A DNA stretch of 63,762 nucleotides, the filler included, from Chrysochromulina tobinii (taxonomy: Eukaryota): the NCBI GenBank assembly GCA_001275005.1. It is 10 parts of 10 records of this genome, joined end to end, with 100 filler letters (N's around TTAATTAATTAA, not from the genome) between each part and the next. Parts side by side here need not be neighbours in the genome. Positions count along the whole stretch, not along the records: positions 3,262 to 18,018 come from JWZX01000585.1; positions 18,119 to 26,271 come from JWZX01000586.1; positions 26,372 to 35,554 come from JWZX01000587.1; positions 35,655 to 44,522 come from JWZX01000588.1; positions 44,623 to 54,855 come from JWZX01000589.1; 5 more parts are not named here. One strand, given 5' to 3'. The number at the start of each line of letters is the position of its first letter. Within the stretch, counting starts at the first letter, position 1. The notes beneath the pieces were generated by a model that saw only the letters and a program-made list of their open reading frames with translations, was not told the DNA's origin and made no database searches. Positions 12,046 through 54,855 of the stretch are shown here, piece after piece. The position numbers and the translations under genes are program-made.

Positions 12046-13744
12046 ATGGCTGCTGCAGCCGCTTGTGCGCCGCTGCCGGCAGGCGTGGCAGATTTGCATC
12101 AGACCGTGCTCGTGGGGCCTCACATTGTGCAAGTCGAGCATCTGTGGGACATGACGATCACTGACGAGGAGCGCCGAGCGCCAGACAGGCTGCCCGCGCA
12201 AAAGCGCATGCTCAAGGTGCATCTGACCGACGGCCATCAAAGGGTCTGTGGCATCGAGTACGCCCGCATTCCACAGCTCGCCGAAAACATGGCGCTCGGC
12301 ACCACGCTTGTGCTTCACAACGTCACCGTGCGCTACGGGCTCCTCTTTCTGACGCCGTCGTGTGTTCACGTGGCCGGCGGCGCGCCGGGCGCCGCGGTGG
12401 CCACTTTGGGACACCCTGCAGGTGCTCAGCCTCAGCCGCCTCAGCGCGCGCAACCATCTCGGCAGCAGCAGCAGCTGCCGCAGCCGCAGCCGCAGCCGCA
12501 GCCGCAGCCGCAGCCACAGCCGCAGCCACAGCCGCAATGGCCGCTACGGACGCTCCAGCCGCTCCAGCCGCTCCAGCCGCCGCAGGCGGCGGCGGCGCAG
12601 CCACACACAGCCCCGCCGTACCATACGGCTTTGCAATGGCCCTCTGCCGCCGCAGCCGCCGCCCCACCTGCTTTCGCACACTCTGTCGCTCATACAGCCA
12701 CAGCCGCCGCCGCCGCCGCGCCGTCCATCTCCTCCATCTCCGCCGCCGCCACCGCAGAGGAGTGGGAGGACGAGGAGGAGGTGCCGTTAGCAGCTCGTCG
12801 ACGCAAGCTGGCCAAGACGAGCTCTCCCTCTCCACAGGCTACCATATTTGGGAAGCCGAGCGCGCCCTCTTCACAGCTGCCCGTTGCAGCTTCACAGCTG
12901 CCCGTTGCAGCTTCACAGCTGCCCGTTGCAGCTTCACAGCTTCCCGTTGCAGCTTCACAGCTGGCCGTTGCAGCTTCACAGCTGCAGCCGGGTCCTGCGC
13001 CGCCGCCGTCGTCGGGGCAGTACCACGATACACCGCGACCGTATCCGCCTGGCGACCCAACGGCTCCGTTTCGTCACCTGCCGGGCGACCCAACGGCTCC
13101 GTTTCGTCACCTGCCGGGCGACCCAACGGCTCCGTTTCGTCACCCACCGATGGCGCTCCATGAGGCCTGCACCCGCCATGCCGCCGGCGGGCTGTTTGAG
13201 CACGGGCGAGCGCGCGTGCTCGTGCGTGCGCTGAGCCACCTGCCCTCGCCCAGCATGCATGAGCTCACTTCGACGCTCTCACTTCCCCACAGGTGCGTGC
13301 GCTGAGCCTGCGGGCGGCCAAGCTCACCGTGCAGGACGAGGGATACGAGTGCGAGCTCGAGCTCCGAGATTCACCCCGAGATAGCGGAGATGCAACCTCC
13401 GAGTTTCGTTGCATGCTCACCCTCGATCCTCAGCTCGTCGAGGGCCTCTTCGGTGCGCGCCCACGACGGCGCCCACGTTCCACAGCCGTCTCCAGAGTAA
13501 TGGCCTCGGATGAGCTCCTTGATTGCCTCCCTCATTGCATGCAGGTGCGCCGGCGCCCACGTTCCACAGCCGTTTCCAGAGCGAGGAGAAGGCGACACGC
13601 AGGGCGGCCAAGGCCGTGGCGAAAAGTGTCAACGATCGGTTGCAAGAGCTCGAGGGCCTCTTCATGCTGGGGCCTGGGCCGCAGGGGGTACTGATGGTGA
13701 TCGAGATCCCCCAACGACCGCCAGCAGCGGTAGGCGAATGTTGA
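12046..13744 (+). CDS. RMI1: RecQ-mediated genome instability protein 1 (exons 12046-13221, 13293-13452, 13545-13744)
   Basis: N-terminal OB fold RMLKVHLTDGHQRVCGIEYARIPQL...GTTLVL.NVTVRYGLLFLTP. Two GT-AG introns restore a C-terminal OB-like region (ECELELRD...LDPQLVEGLFG...LQELEGLF). Confidence 0.75.
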
Positions 13745-14185
13745 TACATAGACACGGACCATTGGCAGATTGGCTGTGTGGGTCAGCGAGGCCACACATT
13801 GACGAATCTTGATACGTAATCACGGACCATTGGCTGTGTGGGTCAGCGAGGCCACACATTGACACACGACGCTAGACGCCCACACGTTCTTGATGTTGAG
13901 ATCGTGAGGAGCCGAGTGTGATTGGATCTCCCTCGAGATCCAATCACACTCCAATCTGCAGCGAGTGTGATTGGATCCGGATTCGGTACGCGTCAACCCG
14001 CCCGTGCGTCGGCCGTCGGAGAGTGTCGTAAGGCTAAAAGGAGCGCGTCGACCCGCGTCCGCGGGGGTCGGACCGGACCACAGCTGTACACAGTCCGGAG
14101 TACGCTCGTAATCAGTACCGACTCGACATTGATTCTATCACTATTAACGCCCCCTGAGGGGCAGTAAGTGCTACCCCTCCGGGCG

Positions 14186-17067
14186 CTACGTGAGTGGGCC
14201 AAAGAGGGACAAAGGCTGGTGTCGCTCCATCGAGCGGTTGTACATGAGCTCGAGGCCCTCCTCGGTGCTTGGCACGAAGAACGTGCTGCTATCGCCCAAT
14301 ACGACGCCCAATCGGTGGCTTCTCAGGGCCTCAGCCGCAGATCCCTTGCCCCGAAGGAGCTGATGCTCATTAACGAAACCGTGGACATAGGACAAGGCGG
14401 TGCGCAGGTGCCCTAGTAGCCGAGCCTGCCGCTCCGAGCATGGGCGGCCAGCTGAGCATCCCAAATTAGGTAGTTCCGAGCATGGGCATCGCTTAGAAGA
14501 GGCCTCCCCGACGCTCGGGACGGCGCCCCTCCATGCCTCCCCGACGCTCGGGACGGCGCCCCTACCCCCGACGCTCGGGACGGCGCCCCTCCATGCACAT
14601 CGGCGCGCCGTCCCGAGCGTCGGGTGAGACTCGACCGCACCTGATGAGGGCGGCAATCAGCGGAACTTAGCGGCACTCAGCGACAATCAGCAGCACTCAG
14701 CAGCACTCAGCGGCATTCCGCGGCACTCAGCAGCACTCAGCGGCTCTCAGCAGCACTCAGCAGCACTCAGCAGCACTCAGCGGCTCTCAGCAGCACTCAG
14801 CAGCACTCACCCGTGCACAGTTGTCTCAGTAACTGCTTCCACTCCATGAAAGGAGTCATCAGTGAGCGGCCGCTGCTCAGGTCGACGTTACACTCGCGCA
14901 ACGCTGGCCGAGGGATACGGCATCGGTAGCCGCGGTCGTCCCGCTCTCGGTCATCCGCTGTGGGGAAATCCCGCGCTTCGCCATCCGCTGTGGGGAAATC
15001 CCGCGCTCGGTCATCCGCTGTGGGGAAATCCCGCCCTTCGGCATCGGCGTGGACAGCAAGGGACGAGATCGCGCGGAGATGTGGCGAGATCGCGCGGAGA
15101 TGGAGCATGCCAGCCTGCGCGAGTCGAGTGCACTTTTGGGCGAGGGCAATCAAGGCCAATTAAGAGCCATCAGGGGAGATCGCACCTGCCCCAGTCGAGT
15201 GCACTTTTGGGCCCAGGTTGAGCTAAACGTGGCATGCAGTGCCAAGGTGCTGCGGCCGACACAGGGAGAGGGAAAGAGGGAAAGGATGTGTGAAGGATGC
15301 ATGCAGTGCCAGGGTGCTGCGGCCGACACAGGGAGGGTATAGATACGGTGTCTTCACAGGGAGAGGGTATAGGTACGGCGTTTTCGGATCGCTTCTCTAC
15401 TCACGACTGAGGCCATCAGAGGCCATCAGAGGCAAGCAGTGCCACGCAGAGGCGATCAATGAGTGGCAATCATCCATTCATTACTGTAATCAGTGGCAAT
15501 CATCCATTTCATTACTGAGGGCGTGCCCAATGGCTTGATGCGAGCCAAACTTCGTCAATCAGTGGCAATTATCCATTTCATTACTGAGGGCGTGCCCAAT
15601 GGCTTGATGCGAGCCAAACTTCGTCAAAGCGCCCCGAGACGAAACGATCGACGCTGAGCATGACCAACGGCGCCGTATTGGGCACACCCTGTTCATAGCG
15701 ACCCGCCTTCATATGGGTCGCATCCCTACTATGGGTCGCATCCCTACTATGGGTCGCATCCCTACGATGGGTCGCATCCGTTGAGGGCACGTCCTGTTCA
15801 TAGAGGCGCACGTCCTGTTCATAGAGGCAGCCCGTGGCGCTCCGGTCCCGAAGTAGAGCGTTCTGCAGCTGGGGCTGGTCGTTGCCGTCTTGCAAGATGA
15901 GGGGGCATGAGCCCACCCATCGCTCAAGCATGGAGACGGACCTGAGGAGGGGGGGCGCAACCAGAAGGCATCAGAGGGCATCAGAGGGCATCAGAGCTCA
16001 TCAGAGCTCATCAGAGGTCATCATCCAGAAACTATCGCTCGAGCATCGCGACGCACCGCGGAGTCATCAACGGGGATCAAAGGAGATCAAGGGGGATCAA
16101 GGGGAGGACAAGGGAGATCAAGGGGAGAACAAGGGAGATCGCGACGCACCACGGAGTCGGGCGCACGTAGACGAAGCCGCTGTTGACCTGCTTCAGCGTG
16201 CAGCCTCGATGTCCGAGCGCCGCACACCTGGCCATCAAGCGAGATCAAAGGGAGATCAAGGGAGATCGGCGGAGATTCAACGGAGCGCCGCACACCGGGC
16301 GAGCCCCTCGTTTACTTCCCGCCCACACCAGCCCGCTCTTGGTAGGCATTTGCCTAATTTGGAACCTCGCTCCCAAAATAAGCGGCCGCATGGGTATCGC
16401 TTCGCGTCGAGGAGGGGATTGTCGACGGGGACGAAGAGCTCACCTGATGAGGAGGGGCAATCAGCATGCACGATCAACGGCACTCGTAACGGCTTCTGGT
16501 GACGAAGAGCTCACCACCCGTGCGGCGCGCGAGGCGCTCGAGGTAGCCGATCACGTCGCCCGACCATGCCACATCTACGTCTTGGCCGATCGCCGAGAAG
16601 CCCATCGCGGCGGCCGCATACAGGACCCACGCCTTGAAGACGGCGAAATGGGCAAAGTCGGGCGTGCCCGCGGCGGCCATGGAGTTCCCCACAGGTTTGA
16701 GCACGCCTCTGCCGTTGAGCTGCTGCACTCGTGGCCAGTCCCTCGCCAGTCGTGTGGCAACACACGTGTCCAAGGCCACGACGAGCACGTGCTGCAGCGA
16801 GTGAGCGAGCCCGGGACGCTGCTCAAGCCCACATAGGAAGTTTTGCAGCAGCGGGTACTGGGCACACGAAGTGCTCATGATGACGGCCGGCTGGGCCGTG
16901 ATAAGCAGTGCGCTGTGCAGCTCTGTCCACAACGGCTTGACTCGAGTCGCCAGCGTGTGGCACTCGCCGCTCGTGTTGAGGTTTTTGAACCTGCGCTCTA
17001 CCATGACGCTCGGCAGCGCATTGGCCAGGCCAGCTATGTCCACGCCACCTTTAAGGCGGTCCATCAC
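14186..17067 (-). CDS. Multi-exon nucleotide-diphospho-sugar transferase (GT77-like); exon boundaries and start uncertain (may extend to about 17233)
   Basis: VLVVALD, FAVFKAWVLY...GFSAIGQDVDVAWSGD (DxD motif), downstream fragments DQPQLQNAL and ALHATF, separated by repeat-rich introns. Confidence 0.55.
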
Positions 17068-17263
17068 GAAGAAACTCCAGACGCGAACGCAGCTCGCCGA
17101 ACAAATCGGCGGCGACTGAAGGTTCGCTGAAGCTTAGCACCGCAGCGAGCGAGGTGCCGCCGAAGAGCACCGCACGTCGGCTAAAGACGGCCACGACGCT
17201 GCACTCGCCAACATCATGCGACGAATTCCGCACAAAATTTTCACATGAAAACCCCTTTAGGTT

Positions 17264-17914
17264 TCAAATCTCGTGCTGTGGCTGATGAAACCCTCTACAG
17301 AAGTCTTCGGCCTCGGCGTCCGTCTCCTCGGCCGCCGCCGCCGCCCTCGCCTCCGCCTCCGGGTTGCGCTCGGCCAGCCGGTCGCACCCAAAGTTGGCGT
17401 AGAAGCTCCATCGGCCGTCGAGGCCGAACCCAGGCAGGTCGGGCTTGAATGGCTTGGGCGAGAGGCCCAGCAGGTCGTACATGGTCGCGTCAAAGTTCTC
17501 CATGGTCGAGAAGAGGATCTTTGCACCTGGGCCCGCGAGCAAGCGGATAGAGGTCGCGTAGCATTCGAGCGTCTTGGTGTTGATGGCGGGCGGATCGGCA
17601 ATGAGCAAATCGAAGGTCTGATGGAGCGATGGCGGCAGCTGGGTCGGTTGATAGCAGTCGAAGAATACAAAGCCGTCGTCGTCGGCCCAGCGCCGATCGA
17701 ACTCAAAGTTGAGGACGCCGTGCGCGTTGCGCATCTCTTCGCTCAGATGGTAGAAGACCGACGGGCACGAGAGGCAGGCAACGCGCTTCGGAGAGAGCGA
17801 GGCGATTATTTCTCTTATGGCCTCGAGCGTGAACGTGGAGTACCACACTTGCAGCAGTCCTGGTGTGATGACGTCCAGGTTGCCCGGGCGCATCTGCCTC
17901 GTCGCGCCGTCCAT
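17264..17914 (-). CDS. EEF1AKMT1: EEF1A lysine methyltransferase 1 (N6AMT2/Efm5 family)
   Basis: QVWYS, RVACLSCPSVF, FEFDRRW, FVFFDC..P, FDLLIADPP, FYANF are family motifs. Confidence 0.85.
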   Translation of the reverse strand: MDGATRQMRPGNLDVITPGLLQVWYSTFTLEAIREIIASLSPKRVACLSCPSVFYHLSEEMRNAHGVLNFEFDRRWADDDGFVFFDCYQPTQLPPSLHQTFDLLIADPPAINTKTLECYATSIRLLAGPGAKILFSTMENFDATMYDLLGLSPKPFKPDLPGFGLDGRWSFYANFGCDRLAERNPEAEARAAAAAEETDAEAEDFCRGFHQPQHEI

Positions 17915-19613
17915 GTTCGACGTTCTCGTCAGTCACGCCGCGCTCCGCGCGCCGTACCAGGCGTTCACACAACACACACTCGGGTAGCTCACTGAGCTCT
18001 TCCTCACTAAGAGGGGGTNNNNNNNNNNNNNNNNNNNNNNNNNNNNNNNNNNNNNNNNNNNNTTAATTAATTAANNNNNNNNNNNNNNNNNNNNNNNNNN
18101 NNNNNNNNNNNNNNNNNNGGAGCCCAGTCGCAGACAGGATGCCAGAGAAAAAACTTTGCCCCGAATAGAACTAGGAAGAACGAGCGCTCATCATGCAGAG
18201 CCTCGGAAAAAAGATCGCTCATCTCACAGAGCCTCGTGTCTCGACTCAAAACCACGCCTCAACGGGGGGAAACAAGGAGCCGAGACGGTTGTGCAGGTCG
18301 TTCACGTCTAGGACGGTGATTGATACGTCGGATGTAGCCTCATCCGGATCGTCGCCCCCTGATCTATCGAGCCGTGGTGCCTGCCATGCGCATCACGTGG
18401 CGCGCCGCGCGCAGTATGGGGTCCATGCTAGCGATGGCAGCGCGGCGGGCGCGCGCCGCATCGCAAACGCGCGCGACCGTTGCGGCGGCGTCTGGGCGCG
18501 AGGCAAGGAGGCGCATCGCGTGGACGTGCTCGCGCAGTGCCCGTGGCGGCGGCGGCAGAGGAGGATGAGGAGGCGGAGGCGGAGGCTGGAGATGAGAGCG
18601 GCGGGCACGGAGTGCCAGCGGCGAAGGGCGAGGAGAAGAGCCGAGCACCGGCGGCGGGAGAAGGCTTGGACGGCACGCGTCGTGCTCGCTTGAGCAGCGG
18701 TGATGCCTCGACGTACGTCAAGGGGGTGGGAGGAAGACCCTTCTTGAGTGATGCGGTTATGTGAAACCTCAGGCGCTTGAGCCGACCAAGCCGATCACGC
18801 TGCTGATGACGGTGCCCGTCGTCAACCTCCTGGAGCGCCCGGTGGAAGATAGTTCACCCCAGCCGCAGCGCAAAAGTCGGCGATCGCCAGCTCGTCCATG
18901 CAACTCATGGCGATGTTCTTACCGTGGTGCATGCCGAGATGAGCAGACGCGCTCATAGTCATCGCTCGCAGCCGCTTCGGGCTACATGCAGGCGCTGTGC
19001 AGCAGAGCAACGAACACGCTGCTACGTCAGCACAAGTCTCAGCTGCAGAATCGCAGAACGCGCCGGGACTAGCAGACGCAGAAGGCAGAGGAGAACCCAA
19101 GAGTGAGGCTCGCGAGCAAAGAGCTACCTTCTAACGCCGATGCCACCACGCAGAGTGCATCGAAGGCGGACGCCATTTGCCCGGGAATTGGGGTCGTTTT
19201 CCGCAAGCGGCTCGCCCCTCCCTCTCCCAGCCGAGCCCCTTGAGCTGTCTTGCGTGGTTTCGCATCAAGTTTAACAAGTTTGCGCATGCAAACTGTGGGA
19301 AAGGGGGAGGGGGGGGGAAGGGGATCGTCGGAAGTACCGGGTTCTGAAGCTCAAACAGGAGTGGGCGACCTCTGTGTTGGGGGGTGGGGAGCTGCAGAGG
19401 CGCACCTTCAAAGCTGTGGCTCTCTCTGGCGTCTTGGCGCCGCCGGAGGGCACTCTTACGCACTCGGGAGGTCCATCTGGCCGCCGTGCCCGTGGGCGTG
19501 GCCGAGCGCGAGCTCCAGGCAGCGGCACGTGCCGTCTCCCCAGATGGGTGCACGCTCATGGGGGTACATGGGGGCGGGGTGGCAATGTACGGAAGTAACA
19601 TCGTCACGCAAGC

Positions 19614-21175: not shown

Positions 21176-21185
21176 TTGTTCGCAA

Positions 21186-26435: not shown

Positions 26436-28253
26436 ACCCTTCTGCGCGCCTCCGGCCTCAATTCCAACCGACTGCATGTCCTCAACCACCTCCTCAACCT
26501 CCACGAGGTCTGATGGATCGAAGATGATCGGCGTGTGCCTGTCGGGCAACGGCTGGTCCGGAAGGTCCACCTGATGAGGGAGGCAATCAAGGACGTGGTC
26601 CGCCTGATGAGGGAGGCAATCAAGGACGTGGTCCACCTGATGAGGGAGGCAATCAAGGACGTGGTCCGCCTGATGAGGGAGGCAATCAAGGACGTGGTCC
26701 ACCTGATGAGGGAGTCAGCCAGAGAGCATCAAGCGCATACCTCCGGCCCATAAGAGGGCGTCCATTCAATTGGCGGCCTCTCGCTCCGAAGCGCAAAGTT
26801 CTTCTCTTGCCCCGGCAGCCACAACTGGCCGCCCAGGCCTATCGTATAAGGGTCGAGGTTGCAGGTGGCATGCCACCAATTGTCTGGAACCCAAATCGTC
26901 TCACCCGGCAGCATCAAGCAGTGCTCGACACCCTCGGCCTTCGCGGTGACATAGTCAATGCGCCCGTTGTGCTCGCACTCTCGGTTCGAGGGGCGCGGCA
27001 GGTGCGGCGCCGCCACGTGCCACAGCTTGGCACCCGAGACGAGCCCGAGCCATGCAGCCCCATGTTGCATCACCTGTGGGGAGAGGCGCCGTGGTGAGCA
27101 CTTGCATGCCATATGAGCCATGCAGCCCCATGTTTCATCACCTGTGCTCGCGAGAAGATGCAATCAGACGCACTCAGACGCACTCGGACGCACTCAGACG
27201 CAATCACCTGAACGCCGCGGTGGCCTCCTCCAAAGGAGAAGACGCGGCACTGTGACGCGCACTCAAACACCTCCGGGTGCGAGTACTCGGTGCCGAGGTC
27301 ACTGAGGAGCTCATCCTCCTTGGCGCCCTTGCCGAATTCGTCCAGTACGATGATGTGCTCCGATTCGGTATGCTGCACGAGCTCCGCCACGGAGATGGAC
27401 GCACCCGACGTGTGCACGTCTACCGGCGGGACCATCTCTGCGGCGCGTGTCCATCCGAACCCCGCGCGCTTGGCCAGCACACGATGGTGGCCAAAGCGCG
27501 CCGAGAAGGCACGCGGGTCTGCATGGAACGGGGGGGGGAAAGCAACATACAATCAGCAGGCAATCACTACGCAGTCAAGCCGCAAACAAACAACAAGCAA
27601 CACGCACCAGTCCAATTGCGCCGAGCAATCCAGTCGTCGATCATGCCGGTGATGATCGTGGGCCTTTCGAAGAGCGCTTGCCTCTCCTCGAGGCTGAGAT
27701 TCCGCAGCTCGCCGTAGCTGATGCGCTGCAGTTCACACTTGACCAGCTTGCCTCCGGCTGTCAGTCCGTCGTGACGTGGCCTGAGGAACTTGGCCTCGCG
27801 GCCCCCGGCTCGTGCCACGCGCCGGAGCTTCCGAGGCGCGCGCGCGCACTGCCGTGCAGGCGCCTCGACACTCAGTGCGCCGCCGCCTTGCTCCTTGCGC
27901 TGGAGCTCGATGCGTAACCTCTGTCGGACACGTATACACCGGAGCGTGTGACAGTCGGGATACAATTGGTCGACCGCCTTTGAGGCGCTCGAGGCGCTGC
28001 CCGCCGTTGTGAGGGCGCTGTTCGAGCTGTAGGAACGCGCTTCCTTGGCGGCCGCGCGCTCTTCCCATGTGCTGAAGCCCTCCGCACCCGGATAGCAAGC
28101 ATGTGTGGTCTCAGGGCAGTCTCTGCATTCGTACGACACGTCTCCGTTGAGCTCGGTGCACGGCGAAGTGCACCACGGCTCGCACACCGCTCGCGTGAGC
28201 GTCCCGAGAGATAATAAGAGTGCCTTGAGTAGCATGATCTCAGACTTTTTCAT
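26372..28253 (-). CDS. Secreted JmjC-domain protein (JMJD8-like), multi-exon, 3'-partial
   Basis: Signal peptide and Cys-rich N-terminus; RPTIITGMIDDW, FSFGG, HGAAWLGLVSGAKLWH, LPGETIWVPDNWWHATCNL. Ends in GGM repeats at the gap. Confidence 0.8.
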
Positions 28254-32012: not shown

Positions 32013-32030
32013 CCCTAACCCTAACCCTAA
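32013..32030. repeat. Interstitial telomeric repeat (CCCTAA)3
   Basis: CCCTAACCCTAACCCTAA. Confidence 0.75.
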
Positions 32031-32742: not shown

Positions 32743-35409
32743 TCAAAGCATCACCAAGTCCAGGCATGCAATGGGCGCCCGTGTCGAGATCGTGAGCTCG
32801 ATCGCCACCCCGCGCCAAAGTGCGGCACAGTCAGTCGTCTGCATCAGCGCCACCCCCAGCTCTTGCCACTCGAAGCGGAGCCGAGCGTACGCATGATCCT
32901 CGACCTCACATGCCACGAACACCCTACCGCCCGCGTGACACTCGCCCGCCGCTGCGGCCGCACGCGCTTCCTCCTCGCGTCTCAGCGCCTGGGCTTCGTT
33001 GGCTGCCCGCGCCGCCTCCGCTTCCGCTGCTGCCACCGCCTTGCGCGCCACCTTTGCCTCCGCTGCCGCCTCCGCCTCCTCCACCTCCTCCGCCTTGAGC
33101 TCTTCCTCCGCCTTGAGCTCAAGCAGGTTGATGCCTCCCGGGCGGAGCACGTGTCGATTGCGCTGGGTCCGATGTGTGCCAATCTCGCCCTTGGCGCCCG
33201 CGCGCAAGCTCTCAGCGATCTCGGCGCGAGGACGCAGCAGATGCTCGAGCTCCGCGTACGCAATTGAGCCGTCGGCCGAGCTGTCCAGCTCGTTGAAGAG
33301 ATCTCCGATGAGCTCAGGCTCGTCAATGGCGTACCCGAGTTGCCTGAGCCCACTGGTAAACTCTTCGCGTGTCACACCGCCGTCGTGGTCTCCATCCAAG
33401 GAGCGGAAGAGCTGGCTCACTCGGCCAGCGGATTGGGCGAGAGCCTCTCGAAGGGCGTCGATGCTCGCCTGCCGCCCCTCGCCCCGCCGCTCTCTCACGT
33501 CGCCGTGCCGAAGGGAGTGCCGGTTCTTCGCGGTGGCGGTGATCTCGCCGAGAGCTCCGTCCTGGAGTACCGCCGCCAACTCCATCCCACGGTCCGCTAG
33601 CCGGTCGACTGTGAGGAGTGCCTTGAGCTCGTCGTAGCGGATCTCGCCAGAACCATCGAGATCGAGCTCGTCGAACACGCTGTCGATGGCGTCCGTGTTG
33701 GAGCCGTCGTACCCGAGCAACGGCAGCGCACTCCGAAACTCGGCCTTGGACACTGAGCCGTCGCGGTCTTCGTCGAGCTGCTTGAAGAGGGTGATCACCT
33801 TGCCAGCCCCCGTCATCAGAGCATGCCGCAGCTGAACGGGGGCGATTGGAAGGGAGCGTTGGGGGGCGAGCGGCGGAGGGTCAGAGAGATAGGCCCGAGA
33901 TAGGTCCCGAGATGCCGAGACTTGGATCAGGAGTGGACTGCGCATTGGGCGGGAGGAGCGGATGGCGGGTCTACGTACCTCAGCCACAGTGGCCTCGCGC
34001 AGAGCTTGTGATGGCGCTCGCCGTTCCCGTACGTCTCGTCGCAGCTCGATGGCGTTCTTCGGGAGGGGTTCGATTGGCCCTCGGGCACCCTCACGGAGGG
34101 GTGCCCGCAAGCGCACGCGCTTTCCCGGGCGGAGTAGCCGGTAGAGCTCTTTGAACTCCACCTGACGACGAGCAAGGCAATCGGTGGTCATCAGAGCTCA
34201 TCAGCGCCACTGCGGAGGCAGCTGAGCTGGTAGAGCGCTTTGAAAGGCACCCACCTGCTGGTCGCCGTCCGCATCCAACTCGTCCCACAGATCGTCGAAC
34301 ACGTCGTCAAAGTGCGAGGCGAAGGTGGCCTGCAACGTCTCGCTCAGCCCCGTGCGCGTCGATCGATCGAGCACGAACGAACGCACACTGGCCCTGCGCG
34401 CACAAGGGCGCACCGGCAGCGCGGCAGGAGGTGGGCAAGAGGTGGGCCGACCGTCAAGCCAGCGACGCGCAGCGGCAGGCAGCCAACAGTCACATGTATA
34501 GCAAGAGCACGGGGATCGGGGGCAGGGGGCAGGGGGCAGGGGGCAAGGCGTGGTGGTGCAGCACAGTCCCACAGACCTCGACACGAAGCCGTTGTCATCG
34601 CACCCGAGCAAGTGGAACATGTCAACGATACGACGGTGCTCGATCGGGCGGGAGGCGGCCCCTCCACGTAGCGTCATGATGAGCGCCTTGCGCGCCACCT
34701 CGTGCTCATCATCGCCCTCTTCTTCTTCATCCGCCATCGCCTCCGCCGCTGCCACCGTGCCGTCACGCAGCTGGCGCAGACGATGCAATTGCTTCTGGAG
34801 CACATGGTTGTACGCCTCGGCCTCGGTGTAGCCACGGACCATCAGCGCCACCTGCGAGCGGACGCTCACGCGCACCTCCGCGGGCGCCTCTGCCTCGCCT
34901 AGCAGCTGTGGCAGCAGAGGAGGCAGCGGAGGAGGCTGGAGCAGCAACGACTCAGCCGAGGGGAAGTGAACCTTAGACGCGGTCGGGCGCCACGGCACGG
35001 TGGCACGCTCATCTTTGATGCTGAGCAGGGCGGCCTCGGAGCTGAAGCGCAGCAAGAAGCGCTTCTCGCCGCGCTCTTCCTGCTCGGCCCGCAGCGGCTC
35101 GAGGTCAGTCTTCTTTAACACGGCAAAGGATGACTTGGACCTTTGCATCACCTTGCGCAGCGTCCGCCCGCTGACCTCGTGATCGAGTTGACGCGCGAGC
35201 TTCTCCTCCGCCTTCTGAAGCTGCTGCATTTTGCGCTGCTGCTCCCGGAGCGACATAGCAACGAGGAGGGGTGGCTCGCCGCTAGCTGCAAACTCCTTGT
35301 CATGCGGGAACTTGTCAATCGGAGGGAGCAGAAATGGCAACGGCCGTGCCGGGGATCCTAGAGGTTGCGCCAAGGGATTGGAAGTGTAGATGATCTTCTT
35401 TCTGGTCAT
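32743..35409 (-). CDS. Multi-EF-hand calcium-binding protein, multi-exon (3' end uncertain)
   Basis: EF loops DADGDQQVEFKEL (after splicing), DEDRDGSVSKAEF, DLDGSGEIRYDEL, DGDHDGGVTREEF, DSSADGSIAYAEL. Confidence 0.8.
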
Positions 35410-36227: not shown

Positions 36228-36245
36228 CTGCGATCCTACGCAACA

Positions 36246-44622: not shown

Positions 44623-46088
44623 CCGCCGCCGCCGCGCGCCGCCACGAGCGCCGTGTCGAGCGCCGCGCGCGCCTCGGCGGCCTCCTGCGTCGCGGCGGAG
44701 AGGGCGCCGTCGTGAGCGCGTGCATGCAAGGGGCGGGGGGCTCGATCGCGACCGCGTGCTCGCCTGCTGTGCGGGCAATCAAGGGCAATCAATGGAGATC
44801 GAGGGAGATCGAGGGAGATCGAGGGAGATCGCACCTGCTGTGCGGCGGAGAGGGCCGCTCGCAGCGCCTTGACGGTTTCGGCAGATTCTGCATCGTGTTG
44901 GCGCCTCTGCACCTCGACCTGCCAAATTAGGGAGGCACTCAGGGAGGGCATCAGACGCTATGGGAGGCGCCATCAGCGGTCATCAGGCGCCATCAGCGGT
45001 CATCAGGCGTCATCAGGGGTCATCAGGCGCCATCAGGCGTCATCAGGCGCCATCAGTAGTCATCAGGCGCCATCATTGGTCATCAGGCGCCATCAAGTCA
45101 GTGGTCATCAGAGGTCATCAGAGGCAATCAGAGGCCATCAAGTCACCGACGCGAGCTGCATCTGCAGTCGCTCCTCTCGTGTCCCTCGAGAGCCCGTGTC
45201 CACGGAGAGGGCGCCGTCGTGAGCGCTTGCATGCAAGGGACGGGGGCCTCCCGTGTCCCCGGAGAGCGCCGCGCCGCCCGCCCCGCTCGCCTTCACCGCG
45301 CCATGCGCCGCGCCGAGCTCCTCTGCGCTCGATACGGCGCGTGGGCTGCTGCTGCTGTTGCCGCCACGTGCGGCGGCGGCTTCGAGCGCATGCAAGCGTT
45401 TCGTCAGCTGGGCGAGCTGTGAATGGAGGCGCGCGAGCTCGGCCGAGGCGGCAAGCGCCTCGCGCTCGGCGGCCTCGGCGCTCTCCCGGGCGCCATCCGC
45501 CTCGAGCCGCAGCGACGCAGCGCCTCGTTCCAACAGGCTGAGCTGCAGTGCCTGCGCGTCGCTCGCCGTTTCGGCCACCGCCGCTGCGAGACGCCCGCGC
45601 CCGCCGCCGCCGGCGGCGCCGCTGAGCGCCAGGGTGCTCCCGCCGCCGCCAGAGTCGACCGCGTTCTGCAGCTCGTCGATCCGAGCGCGCAGCGCCAGCT
45701 GCTGCTGCAGCAGGATGCCCAGGTCGTTCGTGTGCGCCGCTCGCTGCGCTGCCGCCTCACCTCGAAGTTCAAAGGCGAGTCGGGCCAGAGCCTCCTCGTA
45801 CTCCCACCACGGCTTGGGCACCTTGCGGTTGCCGCCGCCGGCGCTGCTGCTGGCCACCGAGGGCGGCCGCCGCGACGGCGGCGGCTTGATGGACCTCGGC
45901 GACAGCGAGGGACTCGGCGCTCGGCCGGTGGGAGCCTTCTTGAGGCCTACCGACGGGCTGCTGCTGCTGCTGGGCTTGGTCGGAGTGTGCGAACGTCGCC
46001 GTGTGCCTCCGTGGCCCTGCCCGGTGGGCGGAGACGCCTCGTAGCCCACGGACGGAGCGGCTGACCGGGGCCTTTGGTTGGAGTCCAT
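44623..46088 (-). CDS. Coiled-coil protein, multi-exon, 3'-partial
   Basis: MDSNQRPRS start, Ser/Pro-rich region, then long heptad Ala/Glu/Leu/Arg stretches and introns with the shared acceptor cassettes. Confidence 0.55.
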
Positions 46089-46289
46089 TTCGAGGCGCCG
46101 GGACGGCGCGTTTTGTGGCCTAACATACCCCTCACCGTTCCCCACTACGCAGAGGCTGGCAGGGTTTGTGGTGTAGGAACGAGTTTCGAAAAAAAGCGTG
46201 CAAGGATGCGCGCGCGAGCGCGCGGCGCGCCCCAACGGCCAAACGCCGGTAAGCCAACCTCGCGCCGCGGAGCCGTCGCCAGACGCGCC

Positions 46290-48070: not shown

Positions 48071-48413
48071 GGCATGAGCCCGCGGAGATAGACGAGATGA
48101 CCGCATCGCGCATGGAAAGGCGGCTGAGAACCGGCGCACGACCCAACCTCACGATCGGGTACGAGCGCGCCTGGGATGTGTTGACCTCAGTTGGGCCATG
48201 CACGGCGCCGTTGCACAGCCGTGTGCTGCGCGTAAGCAGTACTACGTATTTTTCGCTGCCTAATTACGCGTTACGCGAGAACCACACGGACCGCACACGA
48301 GTACACCGAGTACCATGGTTTAGTGTGTAGCGCGACTAGCCTCGCTCTAGTTTTCTAACGCGCTTGGTTTCATCCGCTCGCATGCAACACGTCCATGTAG
48401 GATCTTTATTCGC

Positions 48414-49769
48414 TTACCGTGTGTGTAGGACCGGAGGTAACGGCGGCGGCGCTACCACCAGACACCCCCTCGCATGTGAATTTGGCGGCCGCGTCGGGGA
48501 CGTGCACGGGAAGAAAAAGGAGCCGGGGATCTTATGCTGTTTCATGAGTTCGCTATCGTTGAGGAGCGGCGACCAGCCGCATGGGATAGCCTTGGCCAAC
48601 ACCATAACGATTGGGAGATTCAACATTAGCAGTCGAACCCCGCGCGCTTCGAGATGAAGGGCAGTTTGCTCCTCCTGGCACAATCCAAAGCAGCGCACGA
48701 GGGTGTTGCTCGTGTAGAATATCTTGCGGTCGGCCGTCATGCTGGCTAAGTGCGCCATCGAGCGTGGAGTCCCTATCTGCAACCAGTCTGACCACTGCCA
48801 ACGCATCTTCGCTCCTTTGGGGCACTCCAGTACAGCCTGGCCCATAGCCGGTTCGCTTCTCAGCTGAGTGCTCATCGACCAGGGCTGATGCGGAGCCTTG
48901 CAGGGACGCATTTGTATGTTCCGTGCACCTGGCTGAAACTGGGTGTAGTAGCCGACGACCCCAATCTCCGGAGGTTCACTCTCCGGAGGCCAAGGTGCGC
49001 TCGTGTCCGATGCTGCAGAAGCGCTCGATGTGTCACTCGAGGTGGGCTGGGGGCGCTGCGCTGGGTCATCACGTCGCACGTGGAGCACGACTGCCGAGTG
49101 ATTGGCCACGACGCGCACAAAGCCGCCGCGGAGCGCGAGAAAAGTAATCGGCACAGTTAGAGACACGTCGAGCCGCAATCGCACGATTACGTCATGAGGG
49201 CCAAAGGCGCGGCGCAGCAGCTCCGACTTGGCGACGTGATCATACTGCGGGAACCACTTGTACATAAAGACGGGCGCTCGGCTAATCGAACGTCCACTTA
49301 CCAATGGGGCGCCAGTTGACGGGTTGATTCTTCCACCAACGGCGGCTCTCAGGGCGTCCTTTGCACGACCGCCGTAACTATGTGGCATTGTCGGATCCTC
49401 CGCCGAAACGAATGCCACGTGCAGCCTGGGCCAGAACTCGAAGAGCACCCTAGCTTGGCGGGTCAGCTCATGCTCGGCGGTCGCAAAATCGCCGTCTAGG
49501 TAAGCCGTGCGAGCGTGCTTTGGTGCGACGCACCAAGAGGTGGGATCGACTGTCAGGAAAACATCCATTGAGTTTGGACGAATGATGTGCTGCAGGTGCT
49601 CACGTGCAACGTGCGCAAATGCAGATGGCCCAAACCAGCGTCCAGCGTACAACGCTGCAATTTTAAGCGTTTCAGAATATGTATTTCTGCTGGGGACGAG
49701 CATCTCCTGACGTTCGCTGCGGAGTCCAAGGCTGTTCGTCACGTTATCGTCGTCGTTCGACGCCGCCAT
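48414..49769 (-). CDS. Hypothetical protein, possibly glycosyltransferase-like (start may be upstream at 49901)
   Basis: Long intronless ORF with KIAALYAGR, DVIVRLRLDV and SDWLQIG motifs; function not securely recognised. Confidence 0.5.
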   Translation of the reverse strand: MAASNDDDNVTNSLGLRSERQEMLVPSRNTYSETLKIAALYAGRWFGPSAFAHVAREHLQHIIRPNSMDVFLTVDPTSWCVAPKHARTAYLDGDFATAEHELTRQARVLFEFWPRLHVAFVSAEDPTMPHSYGGRAKDALRAAVGGRINPSTGAPLVSGRSISRAPVFMYKWFPQYDHVAKSELLRRAFGPHDVIVRLRLDVSLTVPITFLALRGGFVRVVANHSAVVLHVRRDDPAQRPQPTSSDTSSASAASDTSAPWPPESEPPEIGVVGYYTQFQPGARNIQMRPCKAPHQPWSMSTQLRSEPAMGQAVLECPKGAKMRWQWSDWLQIGTPRSMAHLASMTADRKIFYTSNTLVRCFGLCQEEQTALHLEARGVRLLMLNLPIVMVLAKAIPCGWSPLLNDSELMKQHKIPGSFFFPCTSPTRPPNSHARGCLVVAPPPLPPVLHTR

Positions 49770-50129
49770 CGTTATGTACCCGGTTTCCGGTACGTGCTGT
49801 GCGGTGTGGCGTCGGGTGGCCTTGTGCTTCGCCGTCGCCGTCGCCGTTTTGTCGTCGCCATCAGCTCTAGGTGGGGCGTTGCTCGCATCGCCCGGCCTCA
49901 TCCCTGTTTACGAACAGAAATCCTCAAAGCGCTTAGTGACCCTATGTCAAGCTCGGCTTGCAGAGAGCCCCCTTGGTACACTGTGAACAAGATTTGGACA
50001 GGTTCAGAATTTTCGATAGTTTGCGAATTAGTGATCTTTGTTAGCACAGGTGTGTTCAGGCGTCAGGACGCGTGATCGAGACGCGTGATCGAGATGCGAA
50101 GCGCCGTCTCGGGCCGACGGCAATCGTGA

Positions 50130-53100
50130 ATGGCGGAGGCGGCCCTTTTGACGACCGTGGCGTCCGCGCCGCTTGCGGCACCGACCGAAGATCTAGACCC
50201 GCCGCAGGGCCCCGTGCCCGCACTATCCGAAAACCTGGAGGGCCTCGTGCCCGCACTGTCCGAAGATCTAAACCCGCCGCAGGGCCCCGTGCCCGTGCCT
50301 GCGACATCCTTCCTCTTCTGGGTTGAGCCGCCCGCGGGCATCCATCACGCCGAGGACTGCGAGCGCGTGTGCGCGGCGGTGCAATCGGCAGACGAAAGGC
50401 TGGACGCTGCGGCCGACGCGACGTCCGCGGGCGTGCGGCTTTGGTGCTTCAGCCGATTCCGCCTGCGCGAGGCCTTCAAGCTCATGGGCTGCAAGCTGCA
50501 GCACGCCGAGGAGCTCACCGAACGGGTGCTTGCCGAGGTCGCGATGCGGCAACAGGAGGGTGGGCTGGCGCCGGCGCCGGCGCGCGCGGTGCTGAGCCGT
50601 CGCGGCTTCCTCTCGATCGTGAGGGCAAGCCTACTGCGCCAAAACTATTCGAATTCCGAGACGCTGCTGCACTTTTGCATTGCGTGCGACATCAAGGAGC
50701 AGCGACGGTGCGTTGATCACTGATGAAGACCGTTGAGGACCGTTGATGACCAGTATAACCTCTGATGACCACTGATGACCGTTGATGACGGCTGGACTGC
50801 CGCGGATGATCACGCATTTCCACTGATGACTACTGATGACCTCCGATGACCACTGATGACCACTGATGACCTCTGATGGCCACTGATGACGGCAGGTGCG
50901 TCATCCTTCTCTTTGGTGGCACCTCGGGCTCCGGCAAGTCCACCCTCGCGTCGCTGATGGCCAGTCGTCTTGGCATCACCACCGTATGGATCCGACCCCT
51001 GCTGATGACCTCTGATGACCACTGATGACCGCTGATGACTTGGCATCACCACCGTATGGATCCGACCCCTGCTGATGACCTCTGATGACCACTGATGACC
51101 GCTGATGATTTGGCATCACCACCGTATGGATTCGACCCCCGCTGATGACAGCTGATGACCACTGATGACCGCTGATGACCACTGATGACCGCTGATGACC
51201 ACTGATGACCACTGATGACCGCTGATGACCACTGATGACCGCTGATGACCACTGATGACCACTGATGACCTCTGATGACCCTTGAGTGCCTCTTTGATGG
51301 CACAGGTGCTCTCGACGGACTCGATCCGCGCCACGCTGCGTCGCTGCCTTGCATGCATGTGCTCACTAGCTCACCACGGCGCCCTTTCCCCACAGGTGCT
51401 CTCGACGGACTCGATCCGCGCCACGCTGCGTCGCTCGTGCACCAACGCTCAACACAACGCGCTGCTCGAGACCTCGACATACACCGCCGGCGACGTCCTT
51501 CACAGCTCCACCTTCACAGCCCCGCCTTCACAGCTCCACGTTCACAGCCCGTCGCTCACAGCCGGTGACGGCCATGAGAAAGCAGCGGCCTTCACCACGG
51601 AAGGTCCCCCCCTGGCCACTTCCCCGCTGGCCGCTTCCCCACTGGCCACTTCCCCACTGGCCACTTCCCCACTAGCCAGCCCAGCCGCCAGTAGCGCCGA
51701 CAGCCCAACACGGCGCCCACCCGCTGGCACCTCGGCCGGCAGCAGCGGCAGCGCCGTCCTGAGCGCCGTCGGCAGCCCGACGGCCAGGTCGAGGGCGGAC
51801 CAGCGCATCTCGTCTGCCCTCCGCCAGCGCGTCCTCCGTGGGTACCGCGCGCAATCGCAGGCACGCTGATTGCCACTGATGACCTGCTCGGCATGCCAGT
51901 ACTCACCACGGCGCGCGCGCACCGACTCGCTCTCGCAGCTGCTCGCGCGCCATATTGAGCGCCTCGTCGCCTCGTTCGAGCTGACGAACCAGTCGCTCAT
52001 TTTGGAAGGCGTGCACCTGGACGTGGCGCTCATCACGGCGCTCCTCGCGCGCCACACGTCGTGCATCCCCTTCCTCATCTACATCTCCAACGAGGCGAAG
52101 CACCGCGAGCGCTTTGCGGTGCGAGTGAGATTGAGATTGAGATTGAGATCGAGATCGAGATTGAGATTGAGGAGCGAAGCACCGCGAGCGCTTTGCGGTG
52201 CGGAGCGCCGTGATGAGCGGATCCGCCGATGGCCTCTGAGTGGACGTGATTGCACCTGATGGCCTCTGAGTGGCCTATGTTTGTAAATGATGACTGTCCT
52301 GATGCCCGATTGATTGTGCCTGATGCCCGGCTCATCAGGCTCATGATTGTGCCGAACGGGCTCCTCGGCCGTAGGTTCGAAGTTCATTGACGCTCGAGCC
52401 CTGCCTTGCATGCACACGCTCACCACGGCGCGCCTTCCCTCTTCCCCACAGGTGCGCTCGAAGTTCATGACGCTCGAGCCCAACGGCAACCGTTACATCC
52501 GCCACTTTGACTCGATTCGGATCATCCAGGCATGCTGATTGCCACCGAGGCCCCGCCCTGCATGCAACCGTTACATCCGCCACTTTGACTCGATTCGGAT
52601 CATCCAGGCATGCTGATTGCCACCGAGGCCCCGCCCTGCATGCAAGTGCTCACCACGGCGCGTTTCGTTCCATCCCCAGCGCGCGCTCACCAAGGATGCC
52701 GACCAGTGCCTGCTACCTAAGGTGGGCTGATTGCATGCCTGATTGCACGCCTGATGGCACGCCATTGCCTAAGGTGGGCTGATTGCATGCCTGATGGCAC
52801 GCCATTGCATGCCTGATGGCATGCCTGCTGCCTAAGGTGGGCTGATTGCACCCTGATGGCATGCCTGATGGCATGCCTGATTGTGGCTGATGAGTGCTGA
52901 TTGCCTTCCGTATCCGGCAGGTGGACTATACCAAATGTGGACCGATCCGTCGCAACCCTGGCTTGCATGCATGTGCTCACCACGGCGCCCGTTCCCCACA
53001 GGTGGACAATACCAATGTGGACCGATCCGTCGCAACCCTTCACACGACCGTCCTCCGCTGCCTCGCCCGCACGGCCGCCGGCGAAAGGCTGTTCGATCCG

Positions 53101-54855
53101 GTGCGCCCAACACAGCGCCTCCATGGGCCCAATACAGCGCCTTCATGCGCCCAATACAGCGCCTTCATGCGCCCAACACATCGCCTTTGTGCGCCCACGA
53201 TGGCGCCCGCAGAGAGTGCGGATGGCCCGGCCCTGCATGCACACGCTCACCACGGCGCGCCCCCCCTCTTCCCCACAGGTGCGCCAGCAGATTGTGGTGA
53301 TGAACGAGCATGCACCCGCTCACCACGGCGCGCCGCCCCTCTTCCCCACAGGTGCGCCAGCAGATTGTGGTGATGAACGAGCATGCACCCGCTCACCACG
53401 GCGCGCGCCCCCTCTTCCCCACAGGTGCGCCAGCAGATTGTGGTGATGAACGAGCATGCACACGCTCACCACGGCGCGCCCCCCTCTTCCCCACAGGTGC
53501 GCCAGCAGATTGTGGTGATGAACGAGGTGTTCGAGTCGCACAATCGGGCCACGTGGTCCTCGAAGGCGATGCTCCAGGTGCATGCCACTGATTGGATGTG
53601 ATTGCGATGCTCCAGGTGCATGCCACTGATTGGATGTGATTGCGATGCTCCAGGTGCATGCCACTGATTGGACGTGATTGCGATGCTCCAGGTGCATGCC
53701 ACTGATTGGACGTGATTGCGATGCTCCAGGTGCATGCCACTGATTGGACGTGATTGCGATGCTCCAGGTGCATGCCACTGATTGGACGTGATTGCATCCG
53801 ATGGCCACTGATGGCTACTGATGGCCACTGATGGCGATGCTGCCGTGCCAAGCTGGAAGAAGCGCCTTGCATGCAGGTGCTCACCGCGGCGCCCTTTCCC
53901 CACAGGTGATCCGTGCCAAGGTGGAGAAGCGCGAGCTCTTCCTTCGCCTCTTCAAACGCGTCGATGGCGCCGAGGTGGGCGGCGCCGAGGTGGGCGGCGC
54001 CGAGGTGGGCGGCGCCGAGGTGGGCGGCGCCGAGGTGGGCGCCCCGAGCGCCGTTGTGGGCGTTGGCGTCGTCGTGGGCGGCAGAGCTGCTGGTCAGGGC
54101 AGCATGCGCGGCGGCAAGGGCGACGACGGCGGCGACGGCGGCGTTGGGGCCGAAGATGACAGGAGCGGCGGCGGCGGCGGCGAAGCTCACGCCGATGACC
54201 TTCCTAATATGGACGCCGATGACCTTCCTAATATGGGTCTACATGCGACAATATCACCTTTTGAGGTCGAGGGCGATGAGGGCAGCGAGGTCGTATCTCC
54301 CGCGGAGCTCGGCGCATCTCCCGCGGAGATCGTGCCGTCGGCGGCGCGATTGACGAAGCTCGGTCGTCCGTTGACGAAGCTCGACGAGCCATTGACGAAG
54401 CTCGGCGAGCCATTGACGAAGTTCGGTGAGGGCTCGAGGCCAACGTCGTCCATTGACGAAGCTCGACGACCCATTGACGAAGCTCGGAGGCCATCGCCTT
54501 CCACACCGCCACGCTCTCCTCCTCAGCCCTCCTCCGTCGGCGCCCAGGTTCGTCAATGGTTCGTCCATGAGCCCTCCTCCGTCGGCGCCCAGGTTCGTCA
54601 ATGGTTCGTCCATGAGCCCGCCTCCGACGGCGCCGTGTCGGGCGACGAGGCGGCGGCTGCCTTCACCGCCGGCGCCGCCGGCACCGGGCACGGACGGCGC
54701 CGTTCTGGGCGCGAGGGCGGGCGCCGTCGCGGGCGCCCGTTGCTCCGGCGCTCGGTCTCGGGCGCCGTGTCGGGCGCCGTGACGGGCGCCGTCGCAGGCA
54801 CACTCGACGACAGTGTTCCCTTGATCCCGCCCTACCCGCCCTGCCCGCCCGACAC
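50130..54855 (+). CDS. P-loop NTPase, LPA1 / 2-phosphoglycerate kinase-like; many introns, 3'-partial
   Basis: Spliced pieces: LMGCKLQHA, GGTSGSGKSTLASLMASRLGITT|VLSTDSIR, LILEGVHL, IPFLIYISNEAKHRERFA|VRSKFMTLEP, VDNTNVDRSVATLH. Confidence 0.88.

What the first reader, a model, noticed from the sequence alone, without database searches (positions are those of the whole stretch)
13222..53905. Candidate intron-generating system: short mobile acceptor cassettes inserted with GT-starting exon duplications
Seen: in unrelated genes on different contigs, an intron (or its last part) starts with a copy of the first 7-45 nt of the next exon, beginning GT, and ends in a shared cassette. Cassette A is TGCATGCAxGTGCTCACCACGGCGC..CCCCACAG; cassette B is CCTTGATTGCCTCCCTCATCAG. 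Examples: RMI1 intron 13222-13292 (16-nt duplicate GTGCGTGCGCTGAGCC, A-like end); RMI1 intron 13453-13544 (about 40-nt imperfect duplicate, B); JmjC 27047-27144 (about 30 nt, A, minus strand); LPA1 51301-51435 (40 nt), 52371-52480 and 52918-53040; EF-hand about 34140-34255 (duplicate only, different acceptor). Further A copies lie near 44700, 45205, 51893, 52640 and 53870. Known: introners and tandem duplication of AGGT proto-splice sites are described routes of intron gain. Inference: a 30-50-nt element supplies only the branch point (CTCAC) and AG while its long, variable target duplication supplies the GT donor. That would give a cleanly spliced new intron, or a recursive AG/GT site. Variable duplication length fits target-primed or repair-templated insertion better than a TIR transposon.
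Basis: partly seen in the sequence, partly recalled or inferred. Interest (0 to 1): 0.85.

Follow-up and report, generated by a model that had tools for sequence, protein, structure and literature searches.

The report
Half-copied introns built from exon duplications
In this alga many short introns consist of a roughly 45-letter splice-acceptor piece shared among unrelated genes plus a 10-50-letter copy of the gene's own next exon that provides the GT start; RNA shows several of them spliced out exactly, and the shared piece is likely copied from existing, often nearby, introns during DNA repair, a route to new introns that published introner screens would miss.

Summary
Real and widespread. 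In a haptophyte alga, 65-95-nt introns are built from a copy of the next exon's start (supplies GT) and a shared ~45-nt branch-point/acceptor cassette. Among 164 non-redundant cassette-A sites in public contigs, 124 end in an acceptor; 88/124 carry a duplication starting exactly after the AG (control 0.5%). Splicing keeps the frame in 38/44 non-3n units, retention in 1/44. RNA contigs show four such window introns removed exactly. One 81-nt unit is present in L139, absent in L025, and its cassette is identical to an intron 518 nt away; best matches are same-contig neighbours in 19/100 (2.3 expected). A mirror class (donor module plus copy of the previous exon's end) also exists. Most cited LPA1/JmjC units extend existing acceptors rather than create introns. 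Likeliest mechanism (inferred): templated insertion from existing intron ends at staggered breaks; retrotransposon-type priming is not excluded. Works like an acceptor-carrying introner but fails the both-ends, TIR and fixed-TSD tests. The scan noted a similar intron before on other DNA of this genome (e1-2577349).

The parts
13222..13292 (+). RMI1 intron: 16-nt copy of next exon start (donor) + degenerate cassette A acceptor
   Evidence: RNA joint 13221>13293 GT..AG in X16
13453..13544 (+). RMI1 intron: imperfect ~37-nt exon-start copy + B-type acceptor
   Evidence: RNA joint skipping 92 nt GT..AG in X13
15115..15185 (-). Mirror-type intron in glycosyltransferase-like gene: donor module + 27-nt copy of previous exon end supplying AG
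   Evidence: 25 matches; RNA joint in X12 and X16
15250..15584 (-). Intron holding a 43-nt copy of the previous exon end and a 17-nt match to the next exon start
   Evidence: RNA joint in X12; X16 maps to the repeat copy
15942..16149 (-). Intron with decayed exon-start copy and 10-nt repeat arrays
   Evidence: RNA joint in 4 of 4 runs
16228..16295 (-). 68-nt intron: 13-nt exon-start copy + acceptor of another (GATCTC-repeat) type
   Evidence: RNA joint in X16
16444..16514 (-). 71-nt intron: 14-17-nt exon-start copy + B-type acceptor
   Evidence: RNA joint in 3 of 4 runs
26571..26702 (-). JmjC intron end: four tandem 33-nt units of exon start + cassette B
27074..27141 (-). JmjC: 27-nt exon-start copy + cassette A behind an older acceptor (intron 27207-27074)
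   Evidence: stop-free 496-aa model
34162..34254 (-). EF-hand gene intron: decayed exon-start copy + B-like acceptor
   Evidence: whole-gene frame not established
44685..44834 (-). Mirror-type intron with core A and copies of the previous exon end
   Evidence: predicted, no RNA joint seen
45185..45247 (-). Core A between 57-nt-period copies inside an open frame; spliced or retained not determined
51306..51395 (+). LPA1-like gene: 40-nt exact exon-start copy + cassette A behind an older acceptor
   Evidence: X12 RNA contig starts to align at 51396 with 28 nt from elsewhere
51861..51938 (+). Mirror-type intron: donor module + core A + decayed copy of previous exon end
   Evidence: weak score; stop-free 853-aa model
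52371..52451 (+). Decayed exon-start copy + cassette A at end of intron 52119-52451
52530..52679 (+). Mirror-type intron with 78-nt tandem unit (44-nt copy of previous exon end) and core A
52921..53001 (+). 39-nt exon-start copy + cassette A behind an older acceptor
53235..53496 (+). Cassette A followed by three 72-73-nt tandem units (exon start + cassette), four in L065
53578..53767 (+). 38-nt tandem array of donor module + previous exon end
53843..53905 (+). Decayed exon-start copy + cassette A at end of intron 53578-53905

Best explanation
These are recently gained spliceosomal introns (and extensions of older acceptors) made of a copy of the flanking exon plus a 40-55-nt piece shared with other introns, and that piece is likely copied in from the end of an existing intron, often in the same gene, by a template switch during repair of a staggered break or stalled fork. 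Steps: (1, inferred) a free 3' end at an exonic G|GT site anneals through 3-4 nt of microhomology to the AG|GT junction of a donor intron; (2, inferred; one worked case) about 48 nt of the donor (branch point, pyrimidine tract, AG) are copied; (3, inferred) the strand returns 15-50 nt behind its departure point, duplicating the target; (4, shown) the first copy's GT and the cassette's AG delimit a 65-95-nt intron that is removed exactly; (5, shown by age spectrum) the copies then diverge and every new intron would be a new donor. The same event on the other strand would give the mirror class; unequal exchange between the copies would give the tandem arrays.
For: Anchored duplication 88/124 vs 0.5%; 104/124 cassettes followed by GT, 7 by GC. 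Frame kept on splicing 59/68, non-3n 38/44 vs 1/44 on retention. RNA joints at 13221>13293, 13451>13544, 16429>16501, 16214>16283 and the mirror intron 15113>15185; X16 record 28 covers 16283-16429 and 16501-17212 as consecutive pieces of one contig. Presence/absence at 98.5% identity: 33-nt exact duplication + 48-nt cassette identical (0/48) to the L025 intron 518 nt downstream, with 2-nt and 1+3-nt junction microhomology. Best-matching cassette is a same-contig neighbour in 19/100 vs 2.3 expected; no cross-contig pair of 12,439 had identical core, tail and >=4-nt left extension; neighbours on the same strand 75:6. Duplicates 26/86 perfect, mean 4.9% diverged, mismatches 28/721, 23/711, 55/702 by codon position, as expected for copies identical at birth. 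Mirror class 6/46 vs 0 in controls, frame kept 4/4. Branch A unchanged in 58/58 unselected cores, 22-37 nt before the AG in all but one. Many plain 20-70-nt tandem duplications in exons and introns.
Against: Only one presence/absence case, and its polarity is not proven (exact deletion between the repeats would look the same; that insert is 3n and stop-free). 81/100 cassettes have their best match elsewhere, and some left extensions recur on different contigs (L006/L014/L018, L009/L130, L067/L107, L117/L124), so copying in trans occurs. The 24-nt core is well conserved (7.3% in unselected neighbours) and its divergence does not track that of the duplication (rho 0.05, p 0.62); the consensus stops about 5 nt upstream of the core, which looks like a defined element end. 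Sense-strand, in-gene and GT targeting is stronger than random repair plus selection obviously predicts. G/AG before the GT (53/68 vs 26% null) is equally explained by donor-site selection. The first cis test gave no signal for the variable trinucleotide or mean tail distance.
Confidence: 0.55

Rival explanations
1. Target-primed reverse transcription: a non-LTR (or Penelope-type) RT acting in trans nicks at G|GT, primes on pre-mRNA or a short RNA at an acceptor, copies ~45 nt and leaves a long variable target duplication; nascent RNA of the same gene gives the local bias.
For: Variable 10-50-nt duplication, intact 3' end at AG, variable 5' extent, sense-only orientation 75:6. Non-LTR-derived introners are reported (PMC12130899 passages; a Pavlovales family 'co-opt 5' carry 3'').
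Against: No poly-A or simple-repeat tail, no Rfam family, no folding beyond shuffles, no identical dispersed young copies; the mirror class has the precise junction at the other end, which cDNA priming explains less naturally. No partner element found in the window (one search shows only a copia-type RT).
Confidence: 0.2
2. A tiny non-autonomous element with a defined core, moved by a dedicated enzyme such as a Replitron-type HUH transposase, with fuzzy ends taken from the parental flank.
For: Replitron-1 inserts orientation-specifically after RG with variable-length TSD and donor-derived fuzzy ends (PMC10288648 section 9); here 36/68 sites follow AG or GG, left extensions are shared with neighbours, and the core has a sharp left edge.
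Against: No terminal direct repeats, no stable hairpin, 45 nt against 0.9-3.6 kb; tails differ among young copies; at least three unrelated acceptor types show the same footprint.
Confidence: 0.1
3. Spliceosome-coupled insertion: a lariat's 3' end is reverse-spliced into the sense DNA strand at a donor-like site, strand-displacement synthesis makes the duplication, and the RNA is trimmed about 20 nt upstream of the branch point.
For: Exact AG end, donor-like targets (GT 80/87, then mostly purine-C-G), in-gene sense orientation and local donors, left edge near the branch region.
Against: No direct evidence; does not produce the mirror class or cores lacking an AG tail (40/164); reverse splicing is described as very rare (PMC3443670 passages).
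Confidence: 0.08
4. Old introns whose ends were overwritten by local duplication or conversion; the cassette is only a conserved splice signal and no intron is gained.
For: 19/87 units follow intron-like sequence and several arrays are plain tandem duplications across a splice site; core conservation is decoupled from duplicate age.
Against: Clean empty site in L025; 42/68 exon-interrupting units have no AG before the first copy; a 24-nt shared core far exceeds a branch motif.
Confidence: 0.06
5. Assembly artefact, with RNA joints caused by RT slippage at the direct repeats or by empty DNA alleles.
For: Joints at duplicated sites have 7-16 ambiguous nt, depth 3-9, from contigs only; two are seen in one run each; no DNA run was laid on 11800-18018.
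Against: Same layout in independent assemblies and sources; diverged copies with codon-position bias; GT..AG ends and frame rescue; one joint in 3 of 4 runs.
Confidence: 0.01

Closest known systems
Introner-like elements of Symbiodinium and Polarella glacialis classes 4/5 and 6/8/10 (bioRxiv 10.1101/2020.10.14.339549, parts 1-2 of 4 read; PMC9860276 Fig. 2B legend)
   Same: Element carries the 3' splice site; the 5' end of the target duplication is the 5' splice site; precise splicing.
   Different: There TSD is fixed (4 or 8 nt) and Symbiodinium elements have inverted repeats; here the duplication is 10-50 nt and forms about 40% of the intron, the shared part is only ~45 nt, has no TIR and is often copied from a neighbour.
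Emiliania huxleyi introner fam24 (PMC12130899 supplement file 8 row 1026)
   Same: Haptophyte, ~70 nt, 'co-opt 5' carry 3'', annotated with 10-bp terminal direct repeats, mechanism unknown.
   Different: 5 copies, automated TSD nt; sequences not seen, so relationship untested.
Chrysochromulina sp. MAG introner family 5 (PMC9860276 Fig. 2C legend)
   Same: No TIR; carries 5' splice site and co-opts the 3' site from the duplication, the polarity of the mirror class.
   Different: 4-bp TSD and whole-intron similarity; the mirror class here has 11-44-nt copies.
Intron gain by tandem genomic duplication of AGGT (PMC3443670 passages)
   Same: Duplicated exon sequence supplies a splice site; explains the secondary arrays.
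   Different: Here the acceptor and branch point come from a foreign shared cassette and 42/68 sites have no AG before the first copy.
[quoted passage not shown]
   Same: Filler DNA between direct repeats.
   Different: Filler here is a recurrent family of intron ends, so the process is self-amplifying; repeats are long.
Replitron-1 of Chlamydomonas (PMC10288648 section 9 part 1)
   Same: Variable TSD, orientation-specific insertion after RG, donor-derived fuzzy end.
   Different: Kilobase elements with terminal direct repeats and a Rep gene; not described as making introns in the passages seen.

Membership tests
Introner (Gozashti et al. operational definition) | Family of >=4 similar introns in non-paralogous genes | tested here: met
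   164 non-redundant core sites in genes with unrelated Pfam domains
Introner (Gozashti et al. operational definition) | Similarity reaching both intron ends (PMC9860276 section 15) | tested here: not met
   5' 14-52 nt are locus-specific exon copy and filler
Introner (Gozashti et al. operational definition) | Insertion creates an exactly spliced intron; recent gain | tested here: met
   one presence/absence site
Introner (Gozashti et al. operational definition) | Mobilised as a transposable element by an autonomous partner | not testable with these tools
   no whole genome held
TIR/MITE introner | Terminal inverted repeats | tested here: not met
   ends not complementary by inspection; ends unpaired in folds, z -0.8 to 0.9
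TIR/MITE introner | Short fixed-length TSD | tested here: not met
   aligned duplicates 10-50 nt, median 29
Non-LTR/SINE (TPRT) | Variable TSD with intact 3' end and 5' truncation | tested here: met
   forward class fits; mirror and tail-less cases do not
Non-LTR/SINE (TPRT) | Poly-A or simple-repeat tail, Pol III RNA-derived head | tested here: not met
   tails end CCCACAG in 96/124; no Rfam match near gathering score
Non-LTR/SINE (TPRT) | Identical dispersed young copies from master loci | tested here: inconclusive
   none among 12,439 cross-contig pairs under a strict test, but shared left extensions across contigs exist; sample is partial
Tandem genomic duplication (AGGT) | Both splice sites come from the duplicated segment | tested here: not met
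   26/68 preceded by AG; acceptor from cassette; met only for secondary arrays
DSB-repair intron gain | Filler flanked by direct repeats with junction microhomology | tested here: met
   microhomology statistic confounded by splice-site selection
Replitron (HUH) | Terminal direct repeats, hairpin, Rep partner | tested here: inconclusive
   no repeats or stable hairpin; Rep gene not searched for lack of a genome
Recursive splicing | AG|GT ratchet point used as splicing intermediate | not testable with these tools
   AG|GT points present at 51305, 52920, 53278ff, 27142; contigs cannot show lariats or intermediates

The most novel reading that the evidence does not exclude
A transposase-free, self-amplifying route of intron gain: ends of ordinary spliceosomal introns act as templates (DNA or nascent RNA of the same gene), the host repair machinery pastes half an intron between two copies of an exon segment, in both polarities and from several unrelated acceptor types, and each product becomes a new donor. 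It would account for much of this alga's intron complement, for intron-dense genes beside intronless ones, and be invisible to screens that need similarity at both intron ends.
Probability: 0.4. Interest if true: 0.87.

Novelty: new variant of a known kind. Interest (0 to 1): 0.72.

Why it matters
Where new spliceosomal introns come from is a long-standing question; most gains have no traceable source. Here each intron carries its own dated birth record (the exon copy) and often an identifiable donor, so rate, donor choice and mechanism become directly measurable in strain panels or mutation-accumulation lines. The published introner screen requires similarity at both intron ends (PMC9860276 section 15) and lists 0 families for Chrysochromulina tobinii (PMC12130899 supplement file 7), so half-copied introns may be an overlooked class in haptophytes and elsewhere (inference; whether C. 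tobinii has them was not tested). They also disturb gene prediction and assembly.

Tried and rejected
No whole genome and no record access behind the metagenome loci, so no genome-wide density, intergenic count or search for a partner enzyme. Viral scan of the core gave 5 hits; 4 (L001-L003, L005) are mutually homologous contigs without tail or duplication and were dropped as chance, L004 kept. Core+tail in genome contigs and viral contigs and cassette B in viral contigs: 0 hits. (three RNA runs, one DNA run on 44623-54855) was swamped by cross-mapping repeats: 216 joints not shown, no listed joint at a cassette unit; one ordinary intron (46997>47125) appears only as two pieces of an X12 contig. 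One search's local-alignment score (128/164 vs 5%) is inflated in tandem cases by imperfect masking; the anchored test is used instead. One search grouped by locus only; repeated with contigs merged, where 1 of the 10 strongest same-contig pairs is a tandem copy. The frame test uses a simple Markov model trained on 16.8 kb of window ORFs and dropped 1 of 88 units for short flank and 19 for intron-like upstream sequence. Only 4 of 36 loci pairs gave the same Pfam families on both sides (L016, L035, L054, L070). EF-hand gene model was out of frame and is not used. Rfam and folding gave nothing. The 13768>13829 RNA joint is not a splice (AT..CC, 35-nt repeat). Paper searches found no description of this architecture; subscription papers, bioRxiv supplements and files 13-14 of PMC12130899 were not seen and may bear on novelty.
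Full report
Setting. The window joins 10 contigs of about 62% GC. A single-exon gene's nearest named relatives are Prymnesium polylepis (60%), an Emiliania huxleyi cluster (59%) and Prymnesium parvum (48%), so the source is a haptophyte alga; a Chrysochromulina-like identity is my recalled guess, not a result. No whole genome was held.

Observation. All cited units exist. Two arrangements must be kept apart. In RMI1 (13222, 13453), the transferase (16514, 16295) and the EF-hand gene (34254) the exon copy is the first part of the intron and no intron precedes it. In LPA1 (51306, 52375, 52921, 53279ff, 53843) and JmjC (27141, 26702) the unit follows or lies in an older intron and replaces its acceptor.

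Generality. Of 210 matches (141 loci; 4 viral chance hits dropped), 176 were non-redundant and 164 had enough flank. 124 of 164 end in a pyrimidine tract and YAG; 104 of these are followed by GT and 7 by GC; 88 of 124 have an upstream copy beginning exactly at the first base after the AG, against 0.5% with swapped partners. A second scan over all 1,571 YAG|GY sites found such copies at 114/167 A-type, 27/80 B-type and 13/143 third-type acceptors, 0 in controls; the 67/1158 'other' hits include many plain tandem repeats and antisense readings. Units are 55-97 nt (one 145), copies 10-50 nt, median 29.

They are introns. For 68 units with exon-like upstream sequence, removing donor-to-AG keeps the predicted frame in 59; among non-3n units 38 of 44, against 1 of 44 if retained. 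RNA contigs from four runs join 13221>13293 (X16), 13451>13544 (X13), 16429>16501 (3 runs) and 16214>16283 (X16), all GT..AG on the gene strand. These are low-depth contigs, the joints lie in direct repeats and no DNA run was laid there, so RT slippage or empty alleles are not excluded for single-run joints. The branch A is unchanged in 58 of 58 unselected cores. No RNA joint was obtained for an undegenerate cassette A; the only hint is an X12 contig that starts aligning at 51396.

They are gains of graded age. L139 carries 81 nt absent from L025 (98.5% identical otherwise): a 33-nt exact copy plus a 48-nt cassette identical to the acceptor of the next intron 518 nt downstream, with 2 nt of microhomology at one junction and 1+3 nt at the other. 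Polarity is inferred, and this insert is 3n and stop-free. Across 86 units 26 copies are perfect, mean divergence is 4.9%, and third codon positions differ twice as often (55/702 vs 28/721 and 23/711), as expected if copies were identical at birth and the exon copy is under selection. Copy number of whole units also varies between assemblies.

Donors. The best-matching cassette is a same-contig neighbour for 19 of 100 (2.3 expected); 10 of 122 same-contig pairs share 12 or more nt beyond the core against 0.2% of 12,439 other pairs; neighbours lie on the same strand 75:6. An earlier, coarser version was positive only for left extensions and near-identical tails. Shared left extensions on different contigs show copying in trans as well. 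Against a simple serial model, core divergence is low and unrelated to duplicate age, and the consensus ends about 5 nt left of the core.

Mirror class. Introns made of a donor module (with or without the core) plus a copy of the previous exon's end that supplies the AG occur at 6 of 46 donor-module sites against 0 in controls; 4 are non-tandem and keep the frame. One in the window, 15185-15115, is spliced in two runs. 40 of 164 cores lack an acceptor tail; many are tandem arrays or mirror cases, some unexplained.

Mechanism. Both classes share one layout, copy-insert-copy, with the precise junction at an AG|GT-like site and mirror symmetry between strands. With local donors, varied tails, several acceptor types and many plain short duplications, I favour templated insertion from existing intron ends by template switching at a staggered break or stalled fork (0.55; inferred; fill-in duplications at staggered breaks are described in PMC8355091, abstract only). 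Target-primed reverse transcription on nascent RNA (0.2), a small HUH-type element (0.1) and lariat reverse splicing into DNA (0.08) remain open, because sense and GT targeting is strong and the core has a defined edge. The cassette has no Rfam match and no notable fold.

Comparison. It works like acceptor-carrying introners of dinoflagellates (bioRxiv 10.1101/2020.10.14.339549, parts 1-2 read), but those have fixed 4- or 8-nt duplications. It fails the both-ends criterion of the introner screen (PMC9860276 section 15). Nearest haptophyte entries are E. huxleyi fam24 (5 introns, 10-bp direct repeats; PMC12130899 supplement) and a Chrysochromulina MAG family with 4-bp TSD. It combines tandem-duplication and break-repair gain (PMC3443670 passages) and echoes Replitron-1 insertion marks (PMC10288648). 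PMC11282704, PMC8469720 and PMC4580454 were seen as passages and hold no such case in them. Nine searches found no description of half-introns with long variable exon copies or of neighbour donors.

Verdict. A real, active-looking route of intron gain, a new variant of introner-like gain with an unresolved motor; interest 0.72.

Noticed in passing
window 50720-51290, 44940-45140, 14650-14810, 15960-16030, 52730-52900: Intron interiors are arrays of 10-nt units that each hold a branch-point-like word; very high summed depth in DNA run X1 suggests genome-wide abundance.
   Followed up: no
window 3262-9861, 17267-17914, 24899-25798, 29185-30810, 42704-44377: Long uninterrupted ORFs (one of about 2,200 aa with helicase and membrane domains) lie beside genes with 6-8 introns; clumping fits local spread.
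   Followed up: partly
window 36183-41936: 1,917-aa ORF with a copia-type RT domain (PF07727), probably an LTR retrotransposon.
   Followed up: no
window 3-3158 and 62237-63762: Element-like ORFs: one with an MLLE domain and an N-terminal stretch resembling an OTU protease (recalled, no Pfam hit), one resembling gag/protease (recalled, no Pfam hit).
   Followed up: no
window 21278-24150: Two-intron gene with a weak C-terminal ADP-ribosyltransferase-like domain, below Pfam cutoff.
   Followed up: no
window 13360-13424: About 60-nt in-frame stretch in the RMI1 exon with a degenerate core-like word; possibly a retained or cryptic insertion.
   Followed up: no
window 32015-32035: Three telomere-like hexamer repeats inside a contig.
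   Followed up: no
window 13768-13829: RNA-library contig lacks 60 nt between 35-nt repeats with non-splice ends; likely an allele or repeat collapse.
   Followed up: no
L126 position 454; L117 and L124; L022: An acceptor cassette on the strand opposite to four neighbours; the same 21-nt spacer before cores on two contigs; a core between exon copies with no exact splice solution.
   Followed up: partly
window 48500-49400: Two DNA alleles at about equal depth in X1, suggesting heterozygosity or two strains.
   Followed up: no
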